A stretch of DNA of 62,764 nucleotides from a virus (lineage: Duplodnaviria > Caudoviricetes): the IMG/VR virus record IMGVR_UViG_3300003868_000001, positions 1 through 62,764 of that record; one strand, written 5' to 3'. Position 1 is the first letter of the stretch; every line of letters starts with the position of its first letter. Below are positions 7,692 to 43,784 of this stretch, piece by piece. The notes under the pieces are model-generated. The model saw only the letters and a list, made by a program, of their open reading frames with translations, searched no databases and was not told the origin of the DNA. A program made the position numbers and the translations under genes.

Positions 7692-7714
7692 GTTCGCCTG
7701 CTTGGTATATGGCA

Positions 7715-7743
7715 AGGGTAAGGCGTGATTGGGTAAAAGACAA
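7715..7743 (-). promoter_or_regulatory. sigma70-like promoter
   Basis: TTGTCT-N17-TACCCT. Confidence 0.6.
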
Positions 7744-8050
7744 GTGCAAAATGTCCAGGGTTTGTCTTCTATTTTTGGATTGGTGATTATAGTGTCAGGT
7801 TGTGTGCGGGGGAGGAGTTAAGGAGCGCGGGCCGTGGGGGTGGAGGCCAGGAACGCGTCCTTGGGGCGGGGTGGCCTGCCCCTAGGGGGCAAGCGCAAGC
7901 AACAGACCGACCAGCGTGGGGTGTAACATATAAGCAACAGTTGCAACTGCTGCAATGGGGAAAAGGACTTGGGCCATATCTGGGTCTCCAGGGGTGCAGG
8001 GTTAAGGGGGTGGCCCCTGCCCCGTGTAGGGCAGGGGCAGGGGGTAGGCG

Positions 8051-8509
8051 CTACGCCTTGGCAGGCGTTGCCACAGGGGCAGGGGTGGCAGGGGCAGGGG
8101 CAGGCGTTGCCTTGGGCGCGGTGGCCTTGGCCTTGGGCGCGGTGGCCTTTGCCGCCACAGGGGCAAGCCAGCCCTGCTTGGCGTGGGTGAACCAGTTGGC
8201 GTGGCTGTGGGCGTTGCCATTGGGCTTGGCAACAGTGCCCCACCCCGCCGACGGCTGCTTGTAGGTGCTGCCAGCCTGTGCCCCTGCCAGCGCGGCGGCA
8301 TATTCCGCGGCGGTAAAGCCATTGGGCTTGGCCTTTGCCAGCGCCTTTGCCACGTTGTAGCAATAGGCGCGGATGCTGTTGCCGCCTTGCGCCTTGGCAG
8401 GCCACGGCCCCATGGAAAACAGGGGGGCCATGGGTGCCGGGGTGGCCTTGGGCGCGGTGGCCTTGGCGGTGGAGACGGCGGTGGTGGACTTTGCGTTGGA
8501 AGCGGACAT
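8051..8509 (-). CDS. Ala/Lys/Pro-rich basic protein in TC/GA-free island
   Basis: AAGG RBS; KATAPK repeats flanking a non-repetitive core; only one acidic residue. Confidence 0.65.
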   Translation of the reverse strand: MSASNAKSTTAVSTAKATAPKATPAPMAPLFSMGPWPAKAQGGNSIRAYCYNVAKALAKAKPNGFTAAEYAAALAGAQAGSTYKQPSAGWGTVAKPNGNAHSHANWFTHAKQGWLAPVAAKATAPKAKATAPKATPAPAPATPAPVATPAKA

Positions 8510-8665
8510 TTGAGTTTACCTTGTGTTACCGGGCTGCACCATTGCCGCCCCGGTAAGACCATGTATGGCCCCCAAATGTGGCAAGATTAAGGCGCATTGG
8601 TGCGATTTGATAAATAGTTTGTTGCTGAGTTGGAAACAGACTTGGACGGGGTTGGACCTGATGAT

Positions 8666-8755
8666 TGTGGCGGAATTAAGGCGGAACGGAGGCATTTTGA
8701 AGGCGAAGAAGATTGCGGCGGAATTGAGGCAGAAATGCGGCGGAATTGAGGCAGA
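8666..8755 (+). repeat. 20-bp direct repeats TGCGGCGGAATTGAGGCAGA
   Basis: Exact copies at 8714-8733 and 8736-8755; 17/20 copy at 8666-8685. Confidence 0.85.
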
Positions 8756-9007
8756 CCGAGCCGGAAGAAGAAGATGAGGAGGACCGACCTACCGAAGAAG
8801 ACCGAATCGTTAGGCGAGACTCGGTCAATAAGGAAATCGGTCAATATAGTCGTCCTCGCCGATGGAGGAAGAAGATTTGGAAGAAAAAGAAGAGCCATCG
8901 GTCCGAAGAAGATGAAGATGTAAGGCCTCGGTCGTCGGAGGAGTTTGAAGAACTGTCAATCAGCCCAAGGAGACGAGCGCCCCGAGGAGCGCCCGCCTTG
9001 GCTTCGG

Positions 9008-9214
9008 TCAGACGCCGGTGCGAGGATGCTGATTGCGGCTGAAGCTGGCACCGTAGGCGATCGCAGGCTTGCACACGTGGATCACGCCGCCGTCGCGCGA
9101 ATAAAGGCGTGTGAGCATGTCGACTTCGTCACGGAGCGCTGCCTTCGCCGAGGCCAGCTTGCCAGTGAACACCGAGCGACCGGCTGCGAGCGAGAGGGTG
9201 AGGGACTTCTGCAT
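9008..9214 (-). CDS. Small hypothetical protein
   Basis: AAAGG RBS before ATG 9214; own promoter at 9255-9283. Confidence 0.5.
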   Translation of the reverse strand: MQKSLTLSLAAGRSVFTGKLASAKAALRDEVDMLTRLYSRDGGVIHVCKPAIAYGASFSRNQHPRTGV

Positions 9215-9254
9215 GGATTGGCCTTTCTTACATTGGGCACCATTGCCCACCAAC

Positions 9255-9283
9255 ACACTACCACGGGGAAATTGCGAAAACAA
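9255..9283 (-). promoter_or_regulatory. sigma70-like promoter
   Basis: TTGTTT-N17-TAGTGT. Confidence 0.55.
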
Positions 9284-9441: not shown

Positions 9442-10080
9442 TCAATTGGCATCTTTATCTTCATCATCCACGGTGATCGCTTCCACCGGAGGAGTGATGT
9501 TCTTGGCTCGGCTGAACCGCTTCTCCCAATCGTCCACCGATGCCATCTCCGCAGGAGCGACGAGGACGCCTCCAGTGTGATTGACCTGGACTTCCTGCTT
9601 CTCCCGGTAGCCAGCGTCGTGCTTCTTGAGTTCGAGCTCGATGAGGCGGATGGGATAAATTGTCTCGATGGAGACGAGCCCTCCGTTGCGATCGTAGCTC
9701 TCCTTCTGCGTGCCGTTGAAGACGAGGTCCTGGTGATGCCCAATGAGTTTCTCTCGGTACTCCTCCTCGGCCATCATGAGGGCTTGAGCGAACTCCTCAT
9801 CCTTCGCGATGTGCGCTCGTACGCATTGGGTCGAGACTCCACAGGCAGCGGCGCTCTCTCCCATTCGTCCCCACTTCCGATACTCCTCGAGGAAGATGCC
9901 CTTCTCTCTATCTCCGAAGGCGATCCGCTCCATCTTGATCCGGGATCTCCAGTTCCCATCCCCATCCTGGTAATCCACAACGACTGGATGTGAGCGTCGA
10001 GCGAGGAGGGAGCGGGGGCGTTTCCGGATCTGGAAGCGTTGATCGTGCTTGTCCGCATAGTCCTCAATGTCGTCCGTCAT
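9442..10080 (-). CDS. terS: Terminase small subunit
   Basis: HTH-like FLEEY...SAAACGVS...DEEFA, then LIELELK...YREKQEVQVNHTGGV, typical of TerS. Confidence 0.75.
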   Translation of the reverse strand: MTDDIEDYADKHDQRFQIRKRPRSLLARRSHPVVVDYQDGDGNWRSRIKMERIAFGDREKGIFLEEYRKWGRMGESAAACGVSTQCVRAHIAKDEEFAQALMMAEEEYREKLIGHHQDLVFNGTQKESYDRNGGLVSIETIYPIRLIELELKKHDAGYREKQEVQVNHTGGVLVAPAEMASVDDWEKRFSRAKNITPPVEAITVDDEDKDAN

Positions 10081-10383: not shown

Positions 10384-10409
10384 TCCTTAACATTCGTCAG
10401 AATAAACCG

Positions 10410-10438
10410 TTGTAAAAGAACACTGTAAAGAGTAACCT
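10410..10438 (+). promoter_or_regulatory. Promoter of the only plus-strand operon
   Basis: TTGTAA-N17-TAACCT upstream of ORF 10472. Confidence 0.5.
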
Positions 10439-11593: not shown

Positions 11594-12167
11594 GCTTCTT
11601 TCCTTTCATGAAGCCAAACACAGCGATACCCGAGGCGAGCAACCAAGCCGCCGCTGGGACTGGAACAGGAGACACCGGGGGTTGCACCACAGGAGGCGTC
11701 CCGCCGCCTGTGCAGCACCACACCACAGGCACAGGGTCCACAGGCCTCCAGGGCGGCTCTGACGGCGTCCATACAGGCTCCACAACTGGTCCATAAACCA
11801 CAGGCACAGGCAGAGGGTCAGCGAACACCACCCAGTTCTGGCAGACGTCCAACTTGAACATGATGTAATGAACACCATCTTGTTCAAAGCGGTATCCTTC
11901 ACCAGACTGGTCCTCCGCCAAGATCGCAGAGTACCCCATTGCATAGGGAACTCCGTCACGAGCGTACGACATCTTCCGGACGATGGACCCAGCCGGAACG
12001 GTCATACGTTCCGGCTGTCCCTTGGGCACTCCGAACTCATCGACCGCCCATTCATATTCGCACGCTCCATCACAAGGAGCGCCGCCCGGAGTATAGTACG
12101 ACATCGTAGAGGCCGAAGCCTCTGACCCAAGAAGGATCAGGAGCATCACGCTAAAGAAGCTGAACAC
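11577..12167 (-). CDS. Secreted protein with VPLPA-CTERM-like sorting signal
   Basis: Signal peptide ending ASA; Pro/Val-rich stalk; C-terminal VPVPAAAWLLASGIAVFGFMKGKK. Confidence 0.75.
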   Translation of the reverse strand: MFSFFSVMLLILLGSEASASTMSYYTPGGAPCDGACEYEWAVDEFGVPKGQPERMTVPAGSIVRKMSYARDGVPYAMGYSAILAEDQSGEGYRFEQDGVHYIMFKLDVCQNWVVFADPLPVPVVYGPVVEPVWTPSEPPWRPVDPVPVVWCCTGGGTPPVVQPPVSPVPVPAAAWLLASGIAVFGFMKGKKHVQSL

Positions 12168-12684
12168 TGGAAATTCCTTTCATCATCTGGATCAGCATCT
12201 TGGTTTGGCCGATCGCATCTTCCATCGCGTTGTGCGACACCACTGTCTGGTCTTCGAGGTCGAGGTCAAATCTCTTGTAGAGCCAGCGCATCGTGCGGAA
12301 GTCGAGTTCCTGCGAATACTTCCACGGAACAGGCAGCTTGCAGGCCTCGAAATGACGTTGCATGAGGATGCAGTCGAAGGACGGCGAGTTCGCCCAGACC
12401 TTGTCCACTTTCTGGATGCGGAGATAGTCTGTCACCTCCAGAAGACTGTCTTTCAGCGACTGTCGCGGCATGGAACGAGGATCGTACGATTGATCCTGCC
12501 ACCACTTGATCGTCTCCGGATTGGGGCAGAAGCCAGTCGTCAGGATGACATCGAGCAGATCGACATTCCACTGCTGGGAACTGATGATCTCTTTCTGCTC
12601 CATGTCGAAGATGCACACCCCGATCTCGAACAGTGGAGCAGCGATCCCCACGTTCAGGGTTTCCAGGTCAATCATTGCGTGCAT
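12151..12684 (-). CDS. DEDDh 3'-5' exonuclease (Rv2179c/DUF5051-like)
   Basis: MIDLETL, WANSPSFD, DFRT, HNAMEDA motifs; AAGGAGG RBS. Confidence 0.85.
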   Translation of the reverse strand: MHAMIDLETLNVGIAAPLFEIGVCIFDMEQKEIISSQQWNVDLLDVILTTGFCPNPETIKWWQDQSYDPRSMPRQSLKDSLLEVTDYLRIQKVDKVWANSPSFDCILMQRHFEACKLPVPWKYSQELDFRTMRWLYKRFDLDLEDQTVVSHNAMEDAIGQTKMLIQMMKGISSVQLL

Positions 12685-13462: not shown

Positions 13463-13500
13463 ATTCGCCTCGTTCTGGAGGGCACTATTACCCTGCCTTT

Positions 13501-13529
13501 ACTATACCCCGCGAGCGCCGTGAAGAACA
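13501..13529 (-). promoter_or_regulatory. Early-type promoter
   Basis: TGTTCT-N17(..CTCGCGGGG)-TATAGT. Confidence 0.6.
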
Positions 13530-14499: not shown

Positions 14500-14649
14500 T
14501 TTCAGCTCCTACATTTCCATCGGAGAACGCATCTCCGTGTTTCCAAAGTGCCCAGACGATAGTGCAGAATGTCACCCACACCACTGACTGCGCAATGAAA
14601 TCAGCGATTATCATGACAGTTCGCCTTGTTGAAGTGTTACCCTACCCCT

Positions 14650-14678
14650 ACAGTACCTTGCGAAACGGCAAAAGACAA
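14650..14678 (-). promoter_or_regulatory. Early-type promoter
   Basis: TTGTCT-N17(..TTTCGCAAGG)-TACTGT. Confidence 0.65.
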
Positions 14679-15420: not shown

Positions 15421-15454
15421 TTTCGCCTCAGGGTTAAGGGTTGCGCCATGCCAT

Positions 15455-15483
15455 ACCATACCCCGCGAGGGCGGGGCCGACAA
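15455..15483 (-). promoter_or_regulatory. Early-type promoter
   Basis: TTGTCG-N17(..CTCGCGGGG)-TATGGT. Confidence 0.65.
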
Positions 15484-15973: not shown

Positions 15974-16003
15974 TCTTTGCCTCCTAGGGGGTTTACCTGC
16001 CCC

Positions 16004-16032
16004 AAAGTACCACGCGAAACCGCATGAAGCAA
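16004..16032 (-). promoter_or_regulatory. Early-type promoter
   Basis: TTGCTT-N17(..TTTCGCGTGG)-TACTTT. Confidence 0.65.
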
Positions 16033-18195: not shown

Positions 18196-18226
18196 GTCTT
18201 GCCTCTTTGGGTTAAGTTACGCTTAC

Positions 18227-18255
18227 AGCGTACCCTGTGAAGCGGCTCGTGACAA
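18227..18255 (-). promoter_or_regulatory. Early-type promoter
   Basis: TTGTCA-N17(..TTCACAGGG)-TACGCT. Confidence 0.65.
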
Positions 18256-21288: not shown

Positions 21289-21319
21289 TTTCGCCTCTTG
21301 AATGTTGTTGCCGTAACTT

Positions 21320-21348
21320 AGTATGCCACGCGAAGCGTGCCTTGACTA
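21320..21348 (-). promoter_or_regulatory. Early-type promoter
   Basis: TAGTCA-N17(..TTCGCGTGG)-CATACT. Confidence 0.6.
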
Positions 21349-22092: not shown

Positions 22093-22117
22093 GACGTTCT
22101 CCCGGTTGCCTGCTTAC

Positions 22118-22146
22118 AATGTAACCTGCGAAAAACCTCGTGACTA
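22118..22146 (-). promoter_or_regulatory. Early-type promoter
   Basis: TAGTCA-N17(..TTTCGCAGGT)-TACATT. Confidence 0.6.
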
Positions 22147-23999: not shown

Positions 24000-24251
24000 T
24001 CACGTTTGCGCCCTCATAGCTTGGAGTAAGGACTGCTCCTCTTCAGGAGACATGTCCAGGGTTTCGAAAGCATTGCGATACGTGTCATGAGATTTAATCA
24101 TGACCGTAGCCTGCTCTTGAGTAACTGCCTCGTGAAACACGATGAAGCTGCTCGAGAAGCAGCAATGGTTTGATACGCTATATGGGAACACCCACACATG
24201 CGATTTTAGCTCTGTCATGATCACGATCCTAACGTCACGCGTAGCCGCCAA
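24000..24251 (-). CDS. Hypothetical protein
   Basis: ORF downstream of promoter 24270-24298; start uncertain. Confidence 0.4.
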   Translation of the reverse strand: MAATRDVRIVIMTELKSHVWVFPYSVSNHCCFSSSFIVFHEAVTQEQATVMIKSHDTYRNAFETLDMSPEEEQSLLQAMRAQT

Positions 24252-24269
24252 ATTTTTGCTACTGAGACT

Positions 24270-24298
24270 ATTTTACCCCACGACAACGGCCCTGACCA
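24270..24298 (-). promoter_or_regulatory. sigma70-like promoter
   Basis: TGGTCA-N17-TAAAAT. Confidence 0.5.
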
Positions 24299-27582: not shown

Positions 27583-27612
27583 GATTGCTCCGAGTGGCGG
27601 GGTTGGCTTTTA

Positions 27613-27641
27613 ACCATACCCCGCCGACAAAGCAGTGACAA
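27613..27641 (-). promoter_or_regulatory. sigma70-like promoter
   Basis: TTGTCA-N17-TATGGT. Confidence 0.65.
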
Positions 27642-27643: not shown

Positions 27644-28117
27644 TCAACCTTTCTCGAGGATCGGCCGGACTGGTCCTCTTTTCTGGTTCTGATACTTGCC
27701 GTCGTAGGCAACAGAAGCAGGCTCGTCAAGGAAATGGAACACGATCTGAGCGATAGGATCACCACGGCGAATGAGGACAGGTTCCTTGCTGTGGTTGGTG
27801 ATTTCCAGTGTGAGATACCCACACCATCCAGGCTCGATCACCGTGTTCTGAACTGCAACTCCGAGACGAGCCCAAGTGGACTTGTCATGAACGATGCCGA
27901 GAACATGCTTTGGCATGACAAACCGTTCGATCGTCGATGCGAGAATGAAGTCTCCAGGATACAAGGTCCACCTTGGTTCAAGACCTTCCTCGTCGAACTC
28001 CACCCGCACGTCGTAGCCAGCGGGACCTACGCCGTAGGTCATGCCGTTGTGTTTGGTCCGCTCAGAGAAAGGCTCGAAGATACCCAGCTTGCGGATCGTG
28101 TTGCCAGATGCGATCAT
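27644..28117 (-). CDS. dcd: dCTP deaminase
   Basis: AGYDVR, KSTWARLG, IEPGW.GYLTLE, IAQ..F, YDGKYQNQ. Confidence 0.88.
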   Translation of the reverse strand: MIASGNTIRKLGIFEPFSERTKHNGMTYGVGPAGYDVRVEFDEEGLEPRWTLYPGDFILASTIERFVMPKHVLGIVHDKSTWARLGVAVQNTVIEPGWCGYLTLEITNHSKEPVLIRRGDPIAQIVFHFLDEPASVAYDGKYQNQKRGPVRPILEKG

Positions 28118-28118: not shown

Positions 28119-28826
28119 TCAGTCCCTCCGGTACGTCGCAAGAGTTTGCCACAGATTGTCTGCAATCGTAGGCTCACGAACAGCACGGAACCCAAGGGAC
28201 ATCATGAAGTCATGAAGGTCCTGTGCCTTGGCCGTGCCGAAACCGCTGATATGCAACTCCAGAGCAACCTGCTCCAGATTGGTGTTCGCCATCAGCCGAT
28301 CGAAGAACTCATACTCAGCACCCTCACAGTCGATCTTGGCGACCTGCATGTTGGGATACAACCCGACCAGAGTGTCGACCGAAATAGCGTTGATCTTGGT
28401 AGTAGAGCGGCCACGGCGGAACGTCGTCGACGAGTTTCCGGGGTTCTTGCCAGTGGTGCTGAGATAGAGTTCCATCTCACCATCATGCTTGCTGGTCAGC
28501 GCCGCGTTGTGCAACGACACACGGTCGTGGAAGCCAGCGGTGTTCAGGTCGAGCATCGCATAGTTGTTCGGTTCCGGCTCCAGCGAGATCACCTGAGCAG
28601 CACCCTTCTCCAGAGCCATCTTCGTGAAGCAGCCGATGTTCGCCCCGATGTCCAGCACGATTTTGCCTTCGCATTCAAGCAGGCCGTAGGACTTGTTGAT
28701 CTCTTTTTGCACATACTGATCGTAAGTTCCAACGCGTCCTTTCATTGGGCCGAGGAAACCTTTTGCAGTGATGTCTATGAGTTCGCGCTCTTCGAACTCA
28801 CCATTCACAATTACACCATATTTCAT
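28119..28826 (-). CDS. FkbM-family SAM-dependent methyltransferase
   Basis: VLDIGANIG, LEPEP.N, KIDCEGAE. Confidence 0.9.
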   Translation of the reverse strand: MKYGVIVNGEFEERELIDITAKGFLGPMKGRVGTYDQYVQKEINKSYGLLECEGKIVLDIGANIGCFTKMALEKGAAQVISLEPEPNNYAMLDLNTAGFHDRVSLHNAALTSKHDGEMELYLSTTGKNPGNSSTTFRRGRSTTKINAISVDTLVGLYPNMQVAKIDCEGAEYEFFDRLMANTNLEQVALELHISGFGTAKAQDLHDFMMSLGFRAVREPTIADNLWQTLATYRRD

Positions 28827-31447: not shown

Positions 31448-32097
31448 CCTTGAATTGGTCCTTCCGACCAGTCATCGTAGCCAAACGGGTGTTCCATGCC
31501 GTCGACTGCCTTATTGTGAGGCTCTGTGGACGTGTTGGTTGGCGCGGCCTGCCCCATAGTACCACCAGCCGCACCACAGGGCAGGGCAGGGGCAGGCGTT
31601 GCGCCCTTGGCAGCACCTACCCCACCCGCCGCACCAGCACCAGCCTCCAGCGCCTTCTGAGCGTTCGCAATAATGTTGTCCAACAGCCGCAAAGCAAACT
31701 CCAGCTGCTGAGTGCTTTGCCAGTCCGAGAGAATGCAGCAGAACTGATACTCCAGGTCAGGCAGGTTGTTGGCTTTCTTGAAGCGAGCGTTCAGTTCGTC
31801 GATGTTGTCCGGCGGCTCGATCGACAACGCATAGACTGCGTCATAGTTGGTGATCATCTTCAAGACATAGGTGCGAGCCTTCGCCAAGTCTTGCAGGCCG
31901 TTTTTCTTCCACCACCGCGAGACGTACTTCGTGGCGCAGCCTTCCAGATAACCGAGGCCAGCCTCGATCACCCAGTCCCAGTGCTGATACTCGGCCTGAT
32001 AGTGTTCGCCACCTTCTTGGGCTACGAACTTGATGTTCTTGCACAGACACATCTTCTTGTCATGGCCGCAGGTGTCACAGTTCGTGTTGCCCATCAT
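31444..32097 (-). CDS. DUF3310 (SaV-like) protein with low-complexity tail
   Basis: QEGGEHY...QHWD...LGYLEG.A.KY.SRW.KKNG..DL.KA..Y. Confidence 0.8.
   Translation of the reverse strand: MMGNTNCDTCGHDKKMCLCKNIKFVAQEGGEHYQAEYQHWDWVIEAGLGYLEGCATKYVSRWWKKNGLQDLAKARTYVLKMITNYDAVYALSIEPPDNIDELNARFKKANNLPDLEYQFCCILSDWQSTQQLEFALRLLDNIIANAQKALEAGAGAAGGVGAAKGATPAPALPCGAAGGTMGQAAPTNTSTEPHNKAVDGMEHPFGYDDWSEGPIQG
31524..31633. repeat. 110-bp dispersed element, copy 1
   Basis: Ungapped alignment with 46196-46305; four identical blocks. Confidence 0.85.
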
Positions 32098-32648
32098 TCT
32101 GCTCCTGCATCCGGAAGGTAGTGCCACGAATGATCTTTGATGAGGTAGTACACATCAATGATCGCTTCGGGATACTTGTGACGATACTTGAGCATGTAGT
32201 TCTCTACCGCCAGACGCTTCGTTTCCATGTTGCGGTTGCCCAACATGAGCTGATCACGGACATAGCAGTAGAACTCGAGCATGTCCAGCCCATGAAGCCA
32301 CTTCACTTCGTGTTCGTTCAGGTCCTGGATCGCGTCGTGTCCAAAGACCTGTTCGTTCATGTGCATCTCGATCTGCATCTGAACGTCGTTGTTCTGCACC
32401 CCGGCTTTCTTGGCGGGATGAGGCATGTCACCGGTGAGACGTTCCGGAATGTCGTGCTGCACCACGGCACGAATGAGCGAACCAGAAGCTGTCGGGTTCA
32501 AGATCAACAGCATCGTCAGCATGTTGAAGGTGTGCATCCCAACAGAGTGGGAGCCGATGCCTGGAGAAGCGTGGGTCCGTTCGACCCGCGCCCCTTCCCG
32601 AGCAAACTTGATGCGTTGAACAACGTCCTCAAGAAAATATTCCATCAT
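32094..32648 (-). CDS. HD-domain nucleotide phosphohydrolase (YfbR-like)
   Basis: R.H...HSVGMH...HDIPE..TGD.P...D.LE. Confidence 0.85.
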   Translation of the reverse strand: MMEYFLEDVVQRIKFAREGARVERTHASPGIGSHSVGMHTFNMLTMLLILNPTASGSLIRAVVQHDIPERLTGDMPHPAKKAGVQNNDVQMQIEMHMNEQVFGHDAIQDLNEHEVKWLHGLDMLEFYCYVRDQLMLGNRNMETKRLAVENYMLKYRHKYPEAIIDVYYLIKDHSWHYLPDAGAE

Positions 32649-33667
32649 GCTCTCCGTGCCAACCATTCAACGCAAGCGCGGCTCCAGTCAGGAGCGGCGA
32701 TCTGCTGCGCGAGAACCATGGCTTTCGCCACCCGCGCAGGGTCTTCCTTGTCTTTCCAGGCCATCCAAGACTGGTACATCGGCACCACCGTCTTCTTGAA
32801 AAACTTGTCCTGGAAGCCCATCACCGCACCTTGGGTCATGAACATGTCCAGGTCCTGGAACCACGCCTCGATTGGGCCGTTGACGATCGGCGTCGCACGC
32901 ACTTCGCCCAAAGAGTACGGGTCCATCCCTGGAGCGTGCTGGGTCACGTTGCCGTGCTTGTCCAGAGTGTTGTGATAGGCGTGAAAGTTGGTGCTGATCT
33001 GTTCGTAGATGCCCATCGGCACGCCGACCCACGCAGACATCACTTCCTGCAACACCGAGAAGTGAACGGCATTCGCACCGTAGGCACCCCAGATCATGTC
33101 GTTGCTGCGATTGAAGACGTACATGTCCAGCTTGCCATAGGGGCTGATGCGGAACGTGCAGATCAGGTTGCAGGGAAAATCCTTGCCGTCCATGCCGAGG
33201 TCAGCAGAAGCGTCCCACATCTGAAGAACGATACGACGGTCGTCGGGGTTCTTCTTGAGCAGGGTGGCAATGGTTGCAAGCTGATCGATACCGCCGATCT
33301 CGAAGCCGCCGTCGCTGTGCTGGATAGTCGCTTCGAAGTGAACCCTCCAGCGATAGCCATAGGCACCATGGAAGTTCACGCCGTCGTCAGTGTAGTTGGC
33401 AATGCTGCCAGCGAACTGAGAGACCCACGCCACATCACGACGACCAGCCAGCATCCACAGGCTTTCCATGAAATGAAAGTAGGGATTGGCATCGCGTTCC
33501 GGATAGAACAGAACACGTTCTTCAGGATGAGCATAGGTGGTCGTCACAGACCCCGGAAAGAGCGTGACAGGGCCGTTGCGAGAGTCGCGATTAACACCTT
33601 CAGCTTTCAGCGCTTGAAGCCCAAGGAGAAGGGCTTCGCTGACATTGCGGGCAGAGATAACTTTCAT
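32645..33667 (-). CDS. Thymidylate synthase homologue, probable dUMP hydroxymethylase
   Basis: SRNG, ANPYFH..E..W, YGYRW, DFPCN, RSND..WG..GAN; Asn rather than the Asp of T4 gp42 at the specificity position; flanked by hmU-modification genes. Confidence 0.8.
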   Translation of the reverse strand: MKVISARNVSEALLLGLQALKAEGVNRDSRNGPVTLFPGSVTTTYAHPEERVLFYPERDANPYFHFMESLWMLAGRRDVAWVSQFAGSIANYTDDGVNFHGAYGYRWRVHFEATIQHSDGGFEIGGIDQLATIATLLKKNPDDRRIVLQMWDASADLGMDGKDFPCNLICTFRISPYGKLDMYVFNRSNDMIWGAYGANAVHFSVLQEVMSAWVGVPMGIYEQISTNFHAYHNTLDKHGNVTQHAPGMDPYSLGEVRATPIVNGPIEAWFQDLDMFMTQGAVMGFQDKFFKKTVVPMYQSWMAWKDKEDPARVAKAMVLAQQIAAPDWSRACVEWLARRA

Positions 33668-34950
33668 GCGAGAACTCCATATTGATCGAACATCAGATCT
33701 TCGTATTTCTTTCTGACGCCGGGGTCGTCTACCCCTGTTTCGGTTACGATGTTGCCGTGGGCAAGATCGATGAGACGCTGCGCGACCGCGACACGGTCGA
33801 ACATGGGAAGGATTTGCCGAGCCTGATCACGATAGATCATGGCTTGGTTGCGATCCATATTGCCAGCTTCCAGGACGATCTCGGCATAGTGTTCGGGATC
33901 ACCATTGGCAACGCCGAGATCGATGTAGTGCTGTCCGGCGACGAACAGTTCGTTGCCCATACCACGAGTCTGTGCGACAGGAACGCAGCCGTTGATCATG
34001 GCGTCCACGACGACACGGTTCCAGTGGCCTCCGACCGCAGAGTACTTCGCCGACCACGAAGGGTCAACCAGAACTCGGGCGCTGGTCAGCATTTCCAGAA
34101 CCTGCTCGCTGTTCCAGTAATCGTGATGGGTCATGCCGTTGGTCTCAGCAGCTTCCCAGAACTTCATCGATGAGAACCAGTCATCGTTTTGATCGTGGAA
34201 ATAGTTCGGCTTGCACTTGTCTTCGCTGGTCATGTACTGATATTCGATACCCTTGCCAGCGATCTCACGCAGTTCTTCAGGATGCTTGTCGGGCATGTAA
34301 GCGATTGCTTCCACCAGTTCGTGGACATGCTTCCAAGCCTTGAAGGTTTGCATGTTGACGAAACCTTTCCGCTTGTTCTCCCACGGCTGGATATCGCGGA
34401 TAGGCATGAACTGCGGGTTGACCACCATCGCCCGAGGGATAGCAAGGTGAGCGGCACCGTTCAAGGCACAGGCATGGACGCAGGCCAGCCCAGACAGCTT
34501 GTCCAGGATATGCAGCAGATGCGGCGCACCGGACTTGACGTTGCCGTCATGAACGAAGGCGATCTGCTTCACATTTGGGTTGAGGTCGTAGAGATCTGGC
34601 CAGCGGTCGTTGCCGAGATGTTGCTTGTTCTTGGGCGGGACAGGCACGGTCCAGATAACCATGTCGTAGCCATTCAGGATTTGGATTGCAGTCCTGAGAC
34701 CTGCGGTCGTCTTGTAAGCCAGCCGGTTCTCGGCTTTGAAGTTCCAGCCTTTGCCTTGGTTGAACCGGATGCCACTGTGACCAATTTCGAAGTCACCGTC
34801 TTTGCCCATCGTGGCCGCTCGATCGGCGTACACCAGTTCTTTGAGATCGACTTTGTGGCCTAGTTCTTTCAAGCCGCCGATCAACTGTTCTGTGTGATTG
34901 ATAATGCCCCCGAGGTCCATGCAGGAATGGAGGGCAACACATATTTTCAT
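33664..34950 (-). CDS. GT-B (GT4-like) glycosyltransferase, putative DNA-modifying
   Basis: GGII.H...L..GLKELGH.V N-terminus; VLVDPS...VVVDAM.NGCVPV C-terminus; ATGA-coupled to hydroxymethylase. Confidence 0.8.
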   Translation of the reverse strand: MKICVALHSCMDLGGIINHTEQLIGGLKELGHKVDLKELVYADRAATMGKDGDFEIGHSGIRFNQGKGWNFKAENRLAYKTTAGLRTAIQILNGYDMVIWTVPVPPKNKQHLGNDRWPDLYDLNPNVKQIAFVHDGNVKSGAPHLLHILDKLSGLACVHACALNGAAHLAIPRAMVVNPQFMPIRDIQPWENKRKGFVNMQTFKAWKHVHELVEAIAYMPDKHPEELREIAGKGIEYQYMTSEDKCKPNYFHDQNDDWFSSMKFWEAAETNGMTHHDYWNSEQVLEMLTSARVLVDPSWSAKYSAVGGHWNRVVVDAMINGCVPVAQTRGMGNELFVAGQHYIDLGVANGDPEHYAEIVLEAGNMDRNQAMIYRDQARQILPMFDRVAVAQRLIDLAHGNIVTETGVDDPGVRKKYEDLMFDQYGVLA

Positions 34951-34979
34951 GTCCAAGGCTCCCATGTGCGGTATAAACC

Positions 34980-35008
34980 ACCTTAGCCCTGGACGTGGCA
35001 AAAGACAA
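34980..35008 (-). promoter_or_regulatory. Promoter of GT-hydroxymethylase-PolA operon
   Basis: TTGTCT-N17-TAAGGT. Confidence 0.65.
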
Positions 35009-35012: not shown

Positions 35013-35246
35013 TTACTTGTCTGAGTCGCGGTCGTTATTTAATGACATGCCCTTGCCGATGATGATTGCAATAGCAAGGAAGGGGCCGAAGCCTGACAGC
35101 AGAAACATAAAGAAGGCTTCTTCTGGACTGACTTTCTGCTTCTTTCCATCAACCAGTTGGCGGTCATACCATGTGATGAAAACGTAAAACCAGACCGCCC
35201 ACCAAAGGGCGATCCAGAACCAGTTGCTGATGATCCAGTTGATCAT
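35013..35246 (-). CDS. Small membrane protein
   Basis: Two hydrophobic helices; coupled to upstream gene. Confidence 0.55.
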   Translation of the reverse strand: MINWIISNWFWIALWWAVWFYVFITWYDRQLVDGKKQKVSPEEAFFMFLLSGFGPFLAIAIIIGKGMSLNNDRDSDK

Positions 35247-36154
35247 TTGATCCGATACCTCGATCTCGGTTTGCCCTGCAGAAGACGGACACGTTCATAC
35301 TTGTCGAACTCACAGAGCGCGAATTGTATGTCGGTCGGTGCCAGCTTGAACGGGTGTGCGAACCACGCACTCTGATTGATGTACAGATCTTGAATGACCT
35401 GTCCAGCATGAGCCTCTTTCAAGGATGACTGGTCAGTCAAACCCAAGACACGAGCAGCACCGCGCAGAGCGCCCGGTCCGATCGGCGTCCATTCCCACCA
35501 GTCTCTTGGGTAAGAGAAGGTGCCGTCCTCCGGGCTTTCAAACACGCTGTTCCAGAAGCCAGTGTAGGTCGTGTCCAGGAGAACTTCCTTGGTCATGAAC
35601 CCTGTGCCGCCGAAGCCCATGAGAGTTCGCATGGAGGTCGCGACTTTCTCCCAGCTTTGGGATACAGTTGCGAGTTGGATCAGGTTCGGCGTTGCCGCGT
35701 GCAAACCCTTGAGAAATATATCCACCACGACCTCTTGCTTCGGGGCGGAGATTCCTTGATTTGTGATGACATATGCGCCTGTGAACACTCTCTCGCCGTC
35801 GGCCAGTCTGTCCGCCGCGAGATCTTTGATGCCATCAAAATCGAAGTCCTCATAGTCTTGCCACCCCACTGCTTCTGCAAATTCCCAAGTGCCGAAGTAT
35901 CTGAATAGCGCGCAGTTCATGAGAACTGAACGGCGGTCATCATGGAAATTCTTCCCGTAGAAAAGCTTCCTCAGCTGATCGCTGGTCCGGTCGTGATGCC
36001 GCCGGACGTTTGTGAACTTATAGGTTTGAAGGATAGGATCTTCGGTCCAAGCCTTGACATCAAACCCAACGGAAAGGCCCGCCTCCTTCCGGAGACGGAC
36101 CTCTTCGCGTTCGTTGAGGTAATCGAAGAACGCTGGTGCTTTGAGCAGTTCCAC
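35243..36154 (-). CDS. aGPT-Pplase1 / 5-hmdU DNA kinase-like protein
   Basis: ER...R......WT.DPIL..YKFTNV.R..DRTS; GPGA.RG; LCEFDKY.R signatures. Confidence 0.8.
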   Translation of the reverse strand: MELLKAPAFFDYLNEREEVRLRKEAGLSVGFDVKAWTEDPILQTYKFTNVRRHHDRTSDQLRKLFYGKNFHDDRRSVLMNCALFRYFGTWEFAEAVGWQDYEDFDFDGIKDLAADRLADGERVFTGAYVITNQGISAPKQEVVVDIFLKGLHAATPNLIQLATVSQSWEKVATSMRTLMGFGGTGFMTKEVLLDTTYTGFWNSVFESPEDGTFSYPRDWWEWTPIGPGALRGAARVLGLTDQSSLKEAHAGQVIQDLYINQSAWFAHPFKLAPTDIQFALCEFDKYERVRLLQGKPRSRYRIK

Positions 36155-36157
36155 CGA

Positions 36158-36966: not shown

Positions 36967-36995
36967 ACACTAACCCGTCGATGTATTGGCGGCAA
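36967..36995 (-). promoter_or_regulatory. sigma70-like promoter
   Basis: TTGCCG-N17-TAGTGT. Confidence 0.55.
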
Positions 36996-41075: not shown

Positions 41076-41129
41076 GATGGCTCCTTTCGGCTATCGTTGA
41101 TGGGGATGCACCCCACGCTCACCACTATC

Positions 41130-41318: not shown

Positions 41319-41863
41319 AGGTCTTTCACCTTTGCTGTGCGCTGGCGGAAAATGCCAAACGTCTCTCTGGGCAGATCAACACCGTCGCCAAGGCGTTCCT
41401 TGACCCAAGAGTTGAGGGTTGCATGATGGACCGAGAAGTTGCTCTTCATCACAAGCTGCATACCAAGTTTCTGGACAGCCTCGATGAAAGCCTTGCTGCG
41501 GGCCTCGTCGCCCTTGGGGAACTCGAATATCAGTTCGCGCTTCACGATGTGGCCGTAACCGTTGTCGTCCAACCACTTGATCGCAGGGTCGCGCTTCTCG
41601 CCAGCAATGCTGGAACGGATCTCTTCTTTGACGGTCAGCTCGCGACCATCGCCGAGGTTGAACTTGCCTTCCATACCGTCGGTCGCCTGCGGAATACGCA
41701 TTTCTGCGATGTCCTTCAGTTCTGCTTGGGCTGTCTCAAGTTCAGCAGCGATGCGGGCTACCTTGGCCTCAGCTGCGAGATACTCGTCTGCCAGCGTGCG
41801 TAATACAGCGGTCAGATTGTCTGAGGGACGGTCATCGCGGAACGCTGCATAGTCGTCTTGCAT
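41315..41863 (-). CDS. Conserved phage replication-module protein
   Basis: WL..NG.G.IVK...VH..TL..WVKE motif. Confidence 0.7.
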   Translation of the reverse strand: MQDDYAAFRDDRPSDNLTAVLRTLADEYLAAEAKVARIAAELETAQAELKDIAEMRIPQATDGMEGKFNLGDGRELTVKEEIRSSIAGEKRDPAIKWLDDNGYGHIVKRELIFEFPKGDEARSKAFIEAVQKLGMQLVMKSNFSVHHATLNSWVKERLGDGVDLPRETFGIFRQRTAKVKDL

Positions 41864-41892
41864 CTGTGAAACCCTTTGTTGTCAGCTTGTAC

Positions 41893-41921
41893 ACTATGCC
41901 CCAACGGCGCACAAAAGACAA
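41893..41921 (-). promoter_or_regulatory. sigma70-like promoter
   Basis: TTGTCT-N17-CATAGT. Confidence 0.65.
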
Positions 41922-41923
41922 CC

Positions 41924-42271
41924 TTAATATATCTTCGCGACAATCTCGGTGTACTCATTGTGTCTTCCGCTCCACTGGAGAAGCTTGACACAACCGCCGT
42001 TGTAGTGAGCAGCGATAGTCGTCGCCATTCCGATGAGACCTGGATTGCCGATCAGAAGAAGATGATCTTTGTCCGTGAAGTCAGACAGCTTTTCGTGCAT
42101 GTCACCCAAGACAAGGCCGGGGTTGAACGGATGCGCCGAGGGCGAAAGGAGATACTGGATCTCCCCCCACCGCTCAGCCTTGTTGATAGATGTGAAGCGG
42201 GGAACCAGTTCCTTGCTGACCTGATCGAACCGCATCTGTTGCTGAACTGCGAAGACTGTCATTATATCCAA
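41924..42271 (-). CDS. Hypothetical protein
   Basis: Coupled to helicase; D.LLL.G.P motif. Confidence 0.65.
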   Translation of the reverse strand: MDIMTVFAVQQQMRFDQVSKELVPRFTSINKAERWGEIQYLLSPSAHPFNPGLVLGDMHEKLSDFTDKDHLLLIGNPGLIGMATTIAAHYNGGCVKLLQWSGRHNEYTEIVAKIY

Positions 42272-43734
42272 GCCTTGAGTGCGTCGCCAAGGATTTCGGC
42301 TGCAACGTCCTTCTTGTTGCGCAGATTCGTGACGATGTGTTCATCGATGTCAGAGTCACTCATGATGTCGATATAGTTGACGGGATGCTCGTCCATTCCG
42401 CCGCGATGAGCACGATCCTCTGACTGGAGCCGGTCCAGCAAGCGGAACGAATTCGAATAGTAGACCATTGTCTTGGCCTGCGTCAGCGTCAGACCGGAGC
42501 CACCCTTTTGGGCATTCCCGACGAACCACTGAACATCGCCTTTCTGGAAGGCCAGCTTGTTCTTCTCAGACTGGTCCTGGTCAACCTTGCCGTCATAGCG
42601 AACAGCAGTCTTGCCGAGGAGATCCATGATCTGATCGATGTCGTGGCTGAACCGTGCCCAAATGATGCCAGGATGGTAGGTCTCGTCACGGATTTGCTCC
42701 ATGGCTCCGAGGCGAGGGTTCTTGTCCGAGAACATATGGACAGGCTCTTCGTCGCCGACCGGAACATAGTTGCAACTGATCTGCTGGAGACGAAGCTGCT
42801 TGACGATCGGAAGTTCAGCAGTGATTAGATGGTCACCGATCTCGAGCATTAGTTCGTCTTCAAGTTGGCTGTAGGCCGCTTTCATTTCGCGCGACATTTC
42901 GAAGTATCGCTTCGAGTACAGCTTCGGCGGAAGGTCGAGAACGTCGTCCTTCAAAACACGATCGCTGATCTCGTTGAGCCACTGATACAGCTTGTCGAGA
43001 TTCTGGTACTCGATCAGCTTGTCGTAGCCGGGATCATAGCCATGCAGAGCCTTGCAGTCGGCGGCTGTGAACCAGCGGCCAAAGAAGTTGCGAAACTCGA
43101 CAGTTCCATGGATGCCGTGGTTCTTCCAGAAAAACTCATCAAGGAACCGGATTTGACTGTAGACGTCGAATGGCCCAATAGCAACAGGAGTTCCCGTTAG
43201 GATTCGACGGAACTTCGCGTACTTGCCGGAAGCGACGATGCTCTTCGTGCGCTTGGCATTCGGAGTCTTGATGTTGTGCGCTTCGTCGAGGACGTACAGG
43301 CACTTGCGCTTCTGCAAGAACTTCCAGACCAGTTCCTTGCCTTCTTTGGTCATGAAGCCGTTGTAGCTGATGAGCAGCACCGACAGACCATCGTGGGTGA
43401 ACAGAGAGTTCATCGCCCGCTTGTGTGCGGCTGTTGCCTTGCGGGCTGTGCTGAACACCTGCACGCGCACGTCGAGGGAGATCTCAACTGGCATGTGCTT
43501 CGGTATCTCGTCCGTGTTCCAGTTGCGCTCAACTCCGGGAGGAGCGACAACCAGCAGGCCGTCGATCTCCCCTTCGGAGTACATGACAGCAGCAGTGTCG
43601 ATGATTGGCTTGGTCTTTGCCGTTCCCTGTTCCCAGAGCAAACCCCACGACTTTTCGCGCATGTGGTTCTTCAGATGGTTCAGCTGATGTTGGAAGGGAG
43701 TGACGGTGTGCGGGTAGTTTTCAATATCTAACAT
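42262..43734 (-). CDS. SNF2-like SF2 helicase
   Basis: EQGTAKT, LDEAH, LTGTP, GLTLT.A, QSEDRAHR.G. Confidence 0.9.
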   Translation of the reverse strand: MLDIENYPHTVTPFQHQLNHLKNHMREKSWGLLWEQGTAKTKPIIDTAAVMYSEGEIDGLLVVAPPGVERNWNTDEIPKHMPVEISLDVRVQVFSTARKATAAHKRAMNSLFTHDGLSVLLISYNGFMTKEGKELVWKFLQKRKCLYVLDEAHNIKTPNAKRTKSIVASGKYAKFRRILTGTPVAIGPFDVYSQIRFLDEFFWKNHGIHGTVEFRNFFGRWFTAADCKALHGYDPGYDKLIEYQNLDKLYQWLNEISDRVLKDDVLDLPPKLYSKRYFEMSREMKAAYSQLEDELMLEIGDHLITAELPIVKQLRLQQISCNYVPVGDEEPVHMFSDKNPRLGAMEQIRDETYHPGIIWARFSHDIDQIMDLLGKTAVRYDGKVDQDQSEKNKLAFQKGDVQWFVGNAQKGGSGLTLTQAKTMVYYSNSFRLLDRLQSEDRAHRGGMDEHPVNYIDIMSDSDIDEHIVTNLRNKKDVAAEILGDALKAWI

Positions 43735-43755
43735 ATGTGCTCCTTTTCTACGACC

Positions 43756-43784
43756 ATTATAGCAGCGCCAAGCCCAAGTGACAA
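43756..43784 (-). promoter_or_regulatory. Promoter of replication operon
   Basis: TTGTCA-N17-TATAAT. Confidence 0.75.

What the first reader, a model, noticed from the sequence alone, without database searches (positions are those of the whole stretch)
7695..43780. Promoters sit in TC/GA-free windows: a footprint of context-specific DNA hypermodification
Seen: TC+GA steps are frequent in ordinary sequence (12 per 60 nt in each of the first two lines). Yet 13 sigma70-like promoters have no TC or GA across the -10/TSS region: 7695-7727, 9227-9268, 13479-13513, 14632-14662, 15429-15467, 15983-16016, 18205-18239, 21301-21332, 22101-22130, 27593-27626, 34961-34992, 41883-41917, 43753-43780 (28-42 nt each). 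Exceptions: 24270, 36967 and the plus-strand promoter at 10410. TT, TA and TG are tolerated. Known: 5-hmdU DNA kinases act post-replicatively with sequence-context preference. Inference: a bulky adduct is placed on T (hmU) in 5'-TC-3' and the phage keeps the host RNAP open-complex zone unmodified, so the modification motif can be read from sequence alone.
Basis: partly seen in the sequence, partly recalled or inferred. Interest (0 to 1): 0.88.

Follow-up and report, generated by a model that had tools for sequence, protein, structure and literature searches.

The report
Phage promoters purged of TC/GA
In this uncultured phage and its relatives the two-letter word TC (GA on the other strand) is almost absent from about 50 bases at each early promoter and from a whole 0.5-1 kb gene island, which suggests that TC marks where the phage chemically modifies its DNA, though this has not been shown.

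Summary
All 13 windows are TC/GA-free. Single runs of this length are expected by chance: 49 runs of 27 nt or more against 49.8 in Markov simulations. Their placement is not chance. Thirteen of 14 promoter -10 sites lie in runs that cover 3.45% of the genome. The depletion is specific to GA/TC: 11 observed against 33-34 expected, 0 of 2000 shuffles as low. It recurs in 34 non-redundant promoters of relatives (z -7 to -8). It runs from the -35 hexamer to the Shine-Dalgarno sequence, including untranscribed DNA. Internal ribosome sites do not show it.

A larger signal was missed. A conserved island (7852-8557), holding a basic Ala/Lys/Pro-rich protein gene, is nearly TC/GA-free. Relatives have wholly free runs of 785 and 721 nt.

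The link to DNA modification is only circumstantial. The genome has a TS-like gene, an HMUDK_hel-domain protein and a unique GT1 glycosyltransferase. It has no P-loop 5-hmdU kinase and no amino-acid:DNA transferase. TC is itself conserved at two fixed promoter positions. M6-like promoters are TC-rich. Interest is high and the mechanism is unproven.

The parts
7695..7743 (-). Promoter-like unit (TTGTCT-N17-TACCCT) before the late/packaging genes; TC/GA-free from 7727 down to the SD
9235..9283 (-). Promoter-like unit (TTGTTT-N17-TAGTGT); TC/GA-free window 9227-9268
13481..13529 (-). Promoter-like unit (..TCGCGGGG TATAGT); TC/GA-free window 13479-13513
14630..14678 (-). Promoter-like unit (TTGTCT-N17-TACTGT); TC/GA-free window 14632-14662
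15435..15483 (-). Promoter-like unit (TTGTCG-N17-TATGGT); TC/GA-free window 15429-15467
15984..16032 (-). Promoter-like unit (TTGCTT-N17-TACTTT); TC/GA-free window 15983-16016
18207..18255 (-). Promoter-like unit (TTGTCA-N17-TACGCT); TC/GA-free window 18205-18239
21300..21348 (-). Promoter-like unit (TAGTCA-N17-CATACT); TC/GA-free window 21301-21332
22098..22146 (-). Promoter-like unit (TAGTCA-N17-TACATT); TC/GA-free window 22101-22130
24250..24298 (-). Exception: promoter-like unit (TGGTCA-N17-TAAAAT) with TCTC right after the -10; the TCTC is kept in its counterparts in relatives
27593..27641 (-). Promoter-like unit (TTGTCA-N17-TATGGT); TC/GA-free window 27593-27626
34960..35008 (-). Promoter-like unit (TTGTCT-N17-TAAGGT) before the GT1 gene; TC/GA-free window 34961-34992
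41873..41921 (-). Promoter-like unit (TTGTCT-N17-CATAGT); TC/GA-free window 41883-41917
43736..43784 (-). Promoter-like unit (TTGTCA-N17-TATAAT); TC/GA-free window 43753-43780
7852..8557 (-). TC/GA-poor island, at most 3 TC/GA per 100 nt and a longest free run of 202 nt. It covers the upstream region, the gene and the downstream hairpins of the Ala/Lys/Pro-rich protein
8051..8509 (-). Gene of a 152-aa basic Ala/Lys/Pro-rich protein with 1 Asp/Glu and no known family. It has 10 TC/GA against 32.0 +/- 4.1 on synonymous resampling, and it is the only outlier among 79 called genes
35243..36154 (-). HMUDK_hel-domain protein (PF18723, E 2.6e-32), no Walker A motif; homologue of PAE1 Orf49, not of its P-loop kinase Orf47
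33664..34950 (-). GT1-family glycosyltransferase (weak Pfam match, E 5.2e-07); no homologue in 50,697 phage records
32645..33667 (-). Divergent thymidylate-synthase homologue, far below the NCBIfam cut-offs for true ThyA; candidate dUMP hydroxymethylase (inferred)
32094..32648 (-). HD-domain phosphohydrolase (5'-deoxynucleotidase-like)
27644..28117 (-). dCTP deaminase/dUTPase-fold protein
28119..28826 (-). FkbM-family methyltransferase

Best explanation
TC (GA on the other strand) is a word read on double-stranded DNA by a phage-specific process. The most likely process is a post-replicative hypermodification of thymidine (5-hmdU) in the context 5'-TC-3', made by the clade's own module (TS-like enzyme, HMUDK_hel-domain protein, GT1 glycosyltransferase).

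Because a bulky major-groove adduct hinders bacterial RNA polymerase at initiation, selection has removed TC on both strands from the roughly 50-bp zone the polymerase contacts, from the -35 hexamer to about +12 of the transcript. Two fixed TCs remain, where the mark is either tolerated or used.

The same selection keeps one whole locus free of the word: the gene of a basic Ala/Lys/Pro-rich protein with its promoter and flanks. This has gone far enough to shape the protein, which has lost Asp/Glu and uses a GA-free Shine-Dalgarno sequence.

Shown: the word avoidance, its class specificity, its boundaries, its conservation across relatives, and the gene content. Inferred: that the sites are promoters, that a modification exists, that T in TC is its target, and why the island needs to be free.
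For: Promoters.
- GA/TC is uniquely depleted: n=14, 11 against 33-34 expected, 0 of 2000 shuffles as low.
- In 34 independent promoters of relatives z is -6.9 to -7.8, and 19 of 34 are wholly free.
- Both GA (z -9.8) and TC (z -5.4) are depleted on one strand.
- Every sub-zone is depleted, including the untranscribed spacer (z -5.5) and the -10 region (z -6.6).
- The zone has sharp limits, -25..+24 from the start of the -10 hexamer, with normal density (0.13-0.19) on both sides.
- Leaders are unrelated in sequence: pairwise identity 0.29 against 0.26 from composition.
- 48 internal ribosome-binding regions are normal (0.150, none free), and non-coding DNA elsewhere is normal (0.151).

Island.
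- The gene has 10 TC/GA against 32.0 +/- 4.1 on synonymous resampling (minimum 18 in 5000).
- It is the only outlier among 79 genes (density 0.022 against 0.10-0.21).
- Homologous loci have TC+GA of 0.02 or less in 14 of 30 loci, in genomes of 42-60% GC, with wholly free runs of 785 and 721 nt.
- 46 of 85 homologous proteins have no Asp/Glu.
- In one strain variant, 39 substitutions create 3 TC/GA against 9-10 expected (P about 0.005).

Gene content.
- The seven related loci that reach the region all keep the HMUDK_hel, GT1 and TS-like genes.
- 33-35% of all T lie in TC. Published figures are 'up to half of thymidines' hypermodified (abstract) and 23% of 5-hmdU phosphorylated in vitro (passage), both in PMC8989533.

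Literature (passages read).
- Conversion of 5-hmdU is 'sequence-specific' (PMC5889632).
- Restriction-resistant sites in M6, ViI and phiW-14 are enriched in TG/TC (PMC6449724).
- Bulky major-groove groups block bacterial RNA polymerase, probably at initiation (PMC4838386).
- 5-hmU raises transcription and its phosphorylation lowers it (PMC6457204).
Against: - There is no direct evidence of any modification or of its context. All public runs holding this DNA are kept as contigs only.
- The complete genome lacks the P-loop 5-hmdU DNA kinase (PF18748) and the amino-acid:DNA transferase (PF18724) that define the characterised pathways. The GT1 assignment is weak (E 5e-07) and the role of HMUDK_hel is unknown.
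- TC is conserved inside the promoter (-20: 44 of 48; -8: 35 of 48). A conserved sub-family has TCTC after the -10. The matrix used to find the relatives' promoters includes those two positions, so their conservation in relatives is partly circular.
- PAE1 (M6-like, TG/TC preference suggested in print) has TC-rich promoters and no dinucleotide-free islands. Phage Simon has none either.
- The 3' limit of the zone coincides with the Shine-Dalgarno sequence, which needs GA. So the limit may be set by translation rather than by the polymerase footprint.
- The polymerase argument does not explain why a whole gene must be free. In some lineages the gene is relaxed (TC+GA 0.06, 6-7 Asp/Glu) while the promoters stay TC/GA-free.
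- The enrichment of GA/TC at codon junctions (1.10) is not specific: CA/TG is 1.14 and TA is 0.60.
Confidence: 0.47

Rival explanations
1. TC/GA is the word of something other than the phage's own modification. It could be a host or phage enzyme or binding protein acting on DNA at very short TC-containing motifs, for example a nuclease or nickase, a DNA deaminase, or a thymidine ADP-ribosyltransferase of a defence system. The promoters, which are melted often, and one indispensable locus are kept free of targets.
For: The evidence for a strand-symmetric, DNA-level word fits this as well as it fits a modification. The genome lacks the kinase and the transferase of the known hypermodification route. 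That DarT-type and DddA-type enzymes prefer TC-containing motifs is recalled, not taken from any call.
Against: The rest of the genome is full of TC/GA (0.159 in coding DNA) and even slightly enriched at codon junctions. A harmful target word would be expected to be depleted genome-wide. No such enzyme was identified in the window. TC is conserved at two promoter positions.
Confidence: 0.2
2. The constraint acts on RNA. The short 5' leaders, and the mRNA of the basic protein, avoid GA (Shine-Dalgarno-like) and UC (anti-Shine-Dalgarno-like), or avoid the cleavage sites of a ribonuclease, to secure translation or stability.
For: The free zone ends exactly at the Shine-Dalgarno sequence. Leaders are A/C-rich near the SD. 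The basic protein's gene uses a GA-free SD, AAGG.
Against: Untranscribed parts are depleted too: spacer z -5.5, -7..+5 z -6.6, +6..+12 z -4.6. 48 internal ribosome-binding regions show no depletion. GA is absent in every context, not only SD-like ones. The island also includes upstream DNA that is probably not transcribed with the gene. It would need two unrelated words on one strand.
Confidence: 0.08
3. No selection on the dinucleotide. The promoters are copies of one cassette whose consensus happens to lack TC/GA, and the island is a low-complexity Ala/Lys/Pro gene whose codons happen to lack them.
For: Runs of this length are as common as chance predicts genome-wide. The 117- and 116-nt runs at 31.5 and 46.2 kb are largely explained by Ala/Gly/Pro-rich coding: 7 against 10.7 expected, P 0.07, though that stretch was read two bases out of the gene's frame.
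Against: Leaders share no more identity than composition gives (0.29 against 0.26). Column, block and mononucleotide shuffles all give z of -7 or lower. Synonymous resampling rejects a codon-composition explanation for the gene (10 against 32). The free state holds in genomes of 42-60% GC with diverged sequences. Strain substitutions avoid creating the word.
Confidence: 0.04

Closest known systems
Thymidine hypermodification of phages M6, ViI, phiW-14 and SP10 (5-hmdU made by a TS homologue, then post-replicative, partial, sequence-dependent conversion)
   Same: Genome architecture like Yuavirus/M6-type phages: helicases, RNR, modification cluster, TS homologue, 5'-deoxynucleotidase-like HD protein, PolA, deaminase, primase. 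An HMUDK_hel-domain protein is present. A third of T lie in the candidate context, against 'up to half' modified in those phages (PMC8989533, abstract).
   Different: No P-loop 5-HMUDK and no amino-acid:DNA transferase. Instead there is a GT1 glycosyltransferase with no homologue in 50,697 phage records. M6-like PAE1 shows neither TC-free promoters nor dinucleotide-free islands.
Short modification motifs of phage DNA, e.g. dPreQ0 at GA in Pseudomonas phage iggy (PMC10484667, abstract and passages)
   Same: A two-letter context (GA/TC) that would mark a large share of one base across the genome.
   Different: No DpdA or 7-deazaguanine genes were found among the window's proteins searched. That paper does not mention promoters or intergenic regions (0 occurrences of either word).
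Motif avoidance and methylation-sensitive promoters in bacteria and phages (restriction-site avoidance, Dam GATC sites in regulated promoters; by analogy, unmethylated CpG islands). Recalled, not from a call.
   Same: A short DNA word whose local presence or absence is shaped by an enzyme that marks or cuts it.
   Different: Here the word is only two letters and is frequent in the rest of the genome. It is purged locally over about 50 bp at many promoters and over a whole gene, to the point of removing Asp/Glu from the encoded protein.
In-vitro effects of 5-substituted uracils on bacterial RNA polymerase (PMC4838386, PMC6457204)
   Same: They give the physical basis of the proposed selection: bulky groups block initiation, 5-hmU stimulates transcription, and phosphorylated 5-hmU represses it.
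   Different: Those templates were modified at every T of synthetic DNA. No natural promoter architecture that avoids a context was described in the passages read.

Membership tests
5-HMUDK-dependent thymidine hypermodification system (M6/ViI/phiW-14/SP10 type) | Thymidylate-synthase homologue acting as dUMP hydroxymethylase | tested here: inconclusive
   32645-33667 matches PF00303 (E 3.3e-21) and phrog_5131 (E 1.5e-118). It scores far below the NCBIfam ThyA cut-offs (64.5 against 174.6 bits; 60.5 against 327), so it is a divergent homologue. Its activity is not testable here.
5-HMUDK-dependent thymidine hypermodification system (M6/ViI/phiW-14/SP10 type) | P-loop 5-hmdU DNA kinase (PF18748) | tested here: not met
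   The six-frame search of the complete genome found nothing at E up to 1. There was no tblastn hit for PAE1 Orf47, which does match PF18748. Walker A motifs occur only in the terminase and a helicase.
5-HMUDK-dependent thymidine hypermodification system (M6/ViI/phiW-14/SP10 type) | Amino-acid:DNA transferase (aGPT-Pplase2/ADDT, PF18724) | tested here: not met
   No match at E up to 1 in the complete genome. No tblastn hit for PAE1 Orf43.
5-HMUDK-dependent thymidine hypermodification system (M6/ViI/phiW-14/SP10 type) | HMUDK_hel-domain protein (PF18723) | tested here: met
   35243-36154: E 2.6e-32, covering 6-276 of 281 profile positions. It is 26% identical to PAE1 Orf49.
5-HMUDK-dependent thymidine hypermodification system (M6/ViI/phiW-14/SP10 type) | Hypermodified thymidine in virion DNA | not testable with these tools
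   Only assembled contigs of the public runs are held, with no raw native reads.
Sigma-70-type promoter | -35 and -10 hexamers 16-18 nt apart, upstream of a gene, on the coding strand | tested here: met
   TTGTCa-N17-TAnnnT in 14 sites, all just upstream of SD+ATG on the minus strand. A matrix gives 53 forward against 1 reverse hits in relatives. A strict TTGACA/TATAAT scan finds only 3 of the 14.
Sigma-70-type promoter | Mapped transcription start, or dependence on host sigma-70 | not testable with these tools
   No RNA run holds the stretch (0 rows on record as RNA).
Selected avoidance of a short DNA word | Depletion beyond composition, position-specific composition and codon usage, specific to one word, and conserved in diverged relatives | tested here: met

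The most novel reading that the evidence does not exclude
T hypermodification at TC works as an epigenetic layer on phage transcription. Each early promoter is a TC-free landing pad for host RNA polymerase that carries exactly two phased marks, on the non-template strand at about -32 and -20 from the start site. These marks tune or time promoter use as the DNA goes from 5-hmdU to the fully modified state. One locus, the basic Ala/Lys/Pro-rich protein gene next to terS, with its own TC-less promoter, is kept entirely unmarked so that it can be read or bound whatever the modification state, for example as a first-expressed gene, a packaging site or an origin. If so, the modification motif of an uncultured phage clade, made by an undescribed glycosyltransferase route without a kinase, can be read from sequence alone.
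Probability: 0.2. Interest if true: 0.92.

Novelty: new variant of a known kind. Interest (0 to 1): 0.8.

Why it matters
If TC is the modification context, three things follow.

1. The target motif of a DNA hypermodification could be inferred from genome sequence alone, in phages that have never been cultured. The signal would be local 'deserts' of a short word at promoters.
2. It would show that a phage has to reconcile protective DNA chemistry with transcription by the host polymerase, and that it does so through promoter architecture.
3. A dinucleotide ban on DNA would have reshaped a protein: no Asp/Glu, unusual codons, and a GA-free ribosome-binding site.

The module itself (TS-like, HMUDK_hel protein, a GT1 glycosyltransferase found in no catalogued phage, no kinase, no amino-acid transferase) points to an undescribed thymidine modification. 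Even if the modification reading fails, a strand-symmetric two-letter word purged from about 50 bp at dozens of promoters and from 0.5-1 kb islands, across genomes of 42-60% GC, still needs an explanation.

Tried and rejected
- **Genome-wide excess of long TC/GA-free runs.** Rejected as evidence: 49 against 49.8 expected. Only the longest runs (202, 117, 116 nt) exceed the simulated maximum of 62.
- **The 117- and 116-nt runs at 31530-31646 and 46202-46317.** These are two copies of a 110-nt repeat (74% identity). The coding copy is mostly explained by Ala/Gly/Pro-rich codons (7 against 10.7, P 0.07; that stretch was read two bases out of the gene's frame). They are not used as support.
- **Enrichment of TC/GA at codon junctions as a sign of a 'useful' word.** The ratio is 1.10 (z 15.6), but CA/TG is 1.14 and TA is 0.60, so this is compensation for TA avoidance. 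Lambda gives 0.96 and PAE1 1.03. Inconclusive.
- **Relatives without the module as a control.** None were found. All seven loci that reach the region keep it, and the other loci are cut short. Phage Simon (primase 46% identical, HMUDK_hel 28%) lacks this promoter family, GT1 and the basic protein, and has no dinucleotide-free islands. PAE1 has none either.
- **Whole-record search of metagenome contigs for the module.** Not possible.
- **Family and fold of the basic protein.**
  - Pfam, PHROGs: no match.
  - Atlas: only unnamed viral clusters at 0.85.
  - AlphaFold model: mean pLDDT 64, core 70-85.
  - Foldseek against PDB: nothing at E of 0.001 or better.
- **The 377-aa and 250-aa unknown proteins against PDB sequences.** Nothing found.
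- **DNA similarity of 12 kb to catalogued phages.** No match.
- **Literature.** Searches found no paper describing promoters or genes purged of a modification context in hypermodified phages. The supplements of PMC8989533 and PMC6449724 may hold context data that I could not see.
- **Strain variants.** Read laying printed only 40 of 811 differences, so the substitution test covers 7718-8306 only.

Full report
**What the window is.** The 62,764-base window is a complete phage genome. Its two ends share 91 identical bases, and the record is classed as having direct terminal repeats and as 100% complete. It is 54% G+C, and my own ORF-based gene call puts nearly all genes on the minus strand. No catalogued phage is similar at the DNA level. 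By protein it is related to Yuavirus/Ab18-type Pseudomonas phages and to 'phage Simon', with primase 42-46% identical. The gene order matches that of the M6-like phage PAE1. Near-identical DNA occurs in groundwater, wastewater, river, biofilm and soil metagenomes from 11 studies.

**The observation.** All 13 windows are free of TC and GA, and the first two lines hold 12 each. Read on the minus strand they belong to one family:
- a -35 hexamer TTGTCa;
- a 17-nt spacer that usually ends in TTTCGCGnGG;
- a -10 hexamer TAnnnT;
- about 20 variable bases;
- a Shine-Dalgarno sequence (GAGGCGAA or similar) and ATG.

The free run starts just after the spacer's TC and ends at the GA of the Shine-Dalgarno sequence.

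**Is it more than chance?**
- Not as single runs. The genome has 49 TC/GA-free runs of 27 nt or more, and first-order Markov genomes have 49.8 +/- 7.1.
- The placement is not chance. Runs of 28 nt or more cover 3.45% of the genome, yet they contain the -10 of 13 of 14 family members.
- Within +6..+25 after the start of the -10 hexamer, GA/TC occurs 11 times against 34.1 (mononucleotide shuffle) or 32.8 (column shuffle), with 0 of 2000 shuffles as low. Of the nine other strand-symmetric dinucleotide classes, only CG is notably low, at 8 against 16.7.
It gave 53 hits on the coding strand and 1 on the other at 12 bits.
- I dropped 16 near-duplicates and 3 that resembled the window's own leaders. 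The remaining 34 leaders, which the matrix never saw, have 29 GA/TC against 72-82 expected (z -6.9 to -7.8). CG is next, at z about -3.6 to -4.0. Nineteen of 34 windows (-7..+25) are wholly free.
- The leaders are not alike: mean pairwise identity is 0.29 against 0.26 from composition, with at most 0.35 bit per column. A shared consensus therefore cannot explain the result.

**Anatomy of the depletion** (pooled n=48).
- GA (20 against 82.6, z -9.8) and TC (25 against 54.1, z -5.4) are both low on the mRNA-like strand.
- Every sub-zone is depleted:

| Sub-zone (from start of -10 hexamer) | z |
|---|---|
| spacer, -16..-9 | -5.5 |
| -7..+5 | -6.6 |
| +6..+12 | -4.6 |
| +13..+25 | -7.2 |

- In 5-nt bins, the density is 0.13-0.19 up to -26. 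It is near zero from -25 to +24 except in two bins, and normal again from +25.
- Those two bins hold conserved TCs: at -20 inside TTGTCA (44 of 48) and at -8 (35 of 48). This conservation is partly circular for the relatives, because the matrix includes both positions.
- A third recurrent place is TCTC at +8/+10.
- Forty-eight internal translation-start regions with no promoter within 90 nt have a normal density (0.150) and none is free. Non-coding DNA outside promoters and islands is also normal, at 0.151.
- So the constraint belongs to the promoter unit, is strand-symmetric, and includes DNA that is not transcribed.

The longest free runs are not at promoters.
- Positions 7852-8557 have at most 3 TC/GA per 100 nt, with runs of 202, 68, 61, 57 and 54 nt.
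- The region holds a 152-aa gene (8051-8509, minus strand). It has Ala/Lys/Pro-rich tails, a conserved core and a single acidic residue.
- Synonymous resampling with the phage's own codon usage gives 32.0 +/- 4.1 TC/GA (minimum 18 in 5000), against 10 observed.
- It is the only outlier among 79 called genes: density 0.022 against 0.10-0.21.
- The protein has no Pfam or PHROG family and no recognisable fold. It has 85 homologues, all metagenomic, and 46 of them have no Asp/Glu.
- In 30 loci with a homologue, TC+GA inside the gene is 0.02 or less in 14, against 0.14-0.19 in the rest of each locus. Two pairs of these loci are one record held in two collections, and several are near-identical strains. 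The genomes range from 42% to 60% G+C.
- Two loci have wholly free runs of 785 and 721 nt that include the gene's promoter, its GA-free ribosome site (AAGG) and its flanks.
- In these lineages the gene's own promoter uses TC-less -35 hexamers (TTGTAC, TTGCCA, TTGCGC).
- In other lineages the gene is relaxed (0.03-0.11, up to 7 Asp/Glu) while early promoters in the same contig stay TC/GA-free (L030).
- In one strain variant, the 39 substitutions listed for 7718-8306 create 3 new TC/GA against 9-10 expected (P about 0.005). Only 40 of 811 differences were shown to me.

**What could read the word?** The genome encodes:
- a dCTP-deaminase-fold protein;
- an HD phosphohydrolase;
- a divergent thymidylate-synthase homologue, far below the ThyA cut-offs;
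- a family A DNA polymerase;
- an FkbM methyltransferase;
- a GT1-type glycosyltransferase with no homologue in 50,697 phage records;
- a 303-aa protein matching Pfam HMUDK_hel.

All seven related loci that reach this region keep the HMUDK_hel, GT1 and TS-like genes.

In PAE1 the P-loop 5-hmdU DNA kinase (PF18748) is a separate 190-aa protein. The window has no counterpart of it, no amino-acid:DNA transferase (PF18724), and no Walker A motif outside the terminase and a helicase. If thymidine is hypermodified here, the route is undescribed. Glycosylation of 5-hmdU is my inference.

**Literature.**
- Lee et al. state that 5-hmdU is converted 'in a sequence-specific fashion' (PMC5889632, passage).
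- Flodman et al. found TG/TC enriched among restriction-resistant sites of M6, ViI and phiW-14, and say the specificity was otherwise unknown (PMC6449724, passages).
- M6 gp54 phosphorylated about 23% of 5-hmdU in vitro, and 'up to half' of T are modified in such phages (PMC8989533, passages and abstract). Here 33-35% of T lie in TC.
- Bulky major-groove groups block bacterial RNA polymerase, probably at initiation (PMC4838386, abstract and passages).
- 5-hmU raises transcription and its phosphorylation lowers it (PMC6457204, abstract and passages).
- Six searches found no description of promoters or genes purged of a modification context. Supplements were closed.

**Weighing the explanations.**
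- The RNA-level rival fails on the untranscribed parts and on the internal ribosome-site control.
- The 'shared cassette / low complexity' rival fails on the shuffles, the resampling and the conservation across G+C contents.
- What remains is a word read on duplex DNA. Its being the phage's own modification context is the most economical reading, given the conserved module and the published polymerase data.
- Several facts weigh against the simple form of that reading:
  - the canonical kinase and transferase are missing;
  - TCs are conserved inside the promoter;
  - PAE1 promoters are TC-rich (CTTTACTTCTTCGG...TATACTTCTTCAC), and neither PAE1 nor Simon has islands;
  - the zone's 3' limit coincides with the Shine-Dalgarno sequence;
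  - a polymerase-footprint argument does not explain a whole TC/GA-free gene.
- A different DNA-acting factor (nuclease, deaminase, ADP-ribosyltransferase or binding protein) is not excluded.
- I put the modification reading at about 0.47.

**Verdict.** It extends to a clade and to a conserved gene island.

Noticed in passing
window 31524-31633 and 46196-46305: Two copies of a 110-nt repeat (74% identity), both TC/GA-free. Each carries CCCTGCCCTGCCC and the E. coli Chi octamer GCTGGTGG on the minus strand (CCACCAGC at 31562 and 46234). The first copy encodes the C-terminal Ala/Gly/Pro-rich part of the DUF3310 protein. The second lies directly after, and in frame with, the stop codon of the 819-aa tail protein gene (46359-48818) and would encode a similar peptide.
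   Followed up: partly
window 1-91 and 62674-62764: Identical 91-nt ends inside a coding region. The record is classed as having direct terminal repeats and as 100% complete, which fits a circularly assembled genome.
   Followed up: partly
window 7982-8452 (+ strand): Three of the genome's four G-quadruplex-like motifs (four or more G-tracts) lie in the TC/GA-free island, on the strand opposite the basic protein's coding strand. 21-nt periodic repeats occur at 8076-8166.
   Followed up: no
window 7882-7977 (-): A small ORF of 31 hydrophobic residues (MAQVLFPIAAV...) just downstream of the basic protein gene, with a similar sequence in relative L027. It may be a small membrane protein.
   Followed up: no
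window 8510-9007: Directly upstream of the TC/GA-free island lies a stretch very rich in TC on the minus strand, with three 20-nt direct repeats (8666, 8714, 8736). The terS-like gene (9442-10080, phrog_4044) has the highest TC/GA density of all genes (0.207).
   Followed up: no
window 43990-44058 (-): Repeated AAGTGATGTCA-type words (iteron- or operator-like) upstream of the promoter at 43761, followed by a 96-nt stretch nearly free of TC/GA (43888-43983).
   Followed up: no
whole window: TA is strongly under-represented: odds ratio 0.43, and 0.60 of the synonymous-resampling expectation at codon level.
   Followed up: partly
L024/L025 (Pseudomonas phage PAE1, NC_028980.1): PAE1 Orf47, annotated 'terminase small subunit', matches the Pfam 5-hmdU DNA kinase family PF18748 (E 8e-18). 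Orf49 matches HMUDK_hel, Orf43 matches ADDT and Orf51 matches Nmad5. PAE1 promoters share CTTTACTTCTTCGG...CACTATACTTCTTCAC, so TC repeats flank both hexamers.
   Followed up: partly
window 16501 and 36967 (-): Further promoter-like sites that are not TC/GA-free: TTGTCT-N17-TACCCT followed by TC at 16501 (17 bits), and TTGCCG-N17-TAGTGT followed by TCGA near 36967.
   Followed up: partly
window 12151-12684 (-): A 3'-5' exoribonuclease Rv2179c-like protein (PF16473, E 1.7e-30) among the early genes.
   Followed up: no
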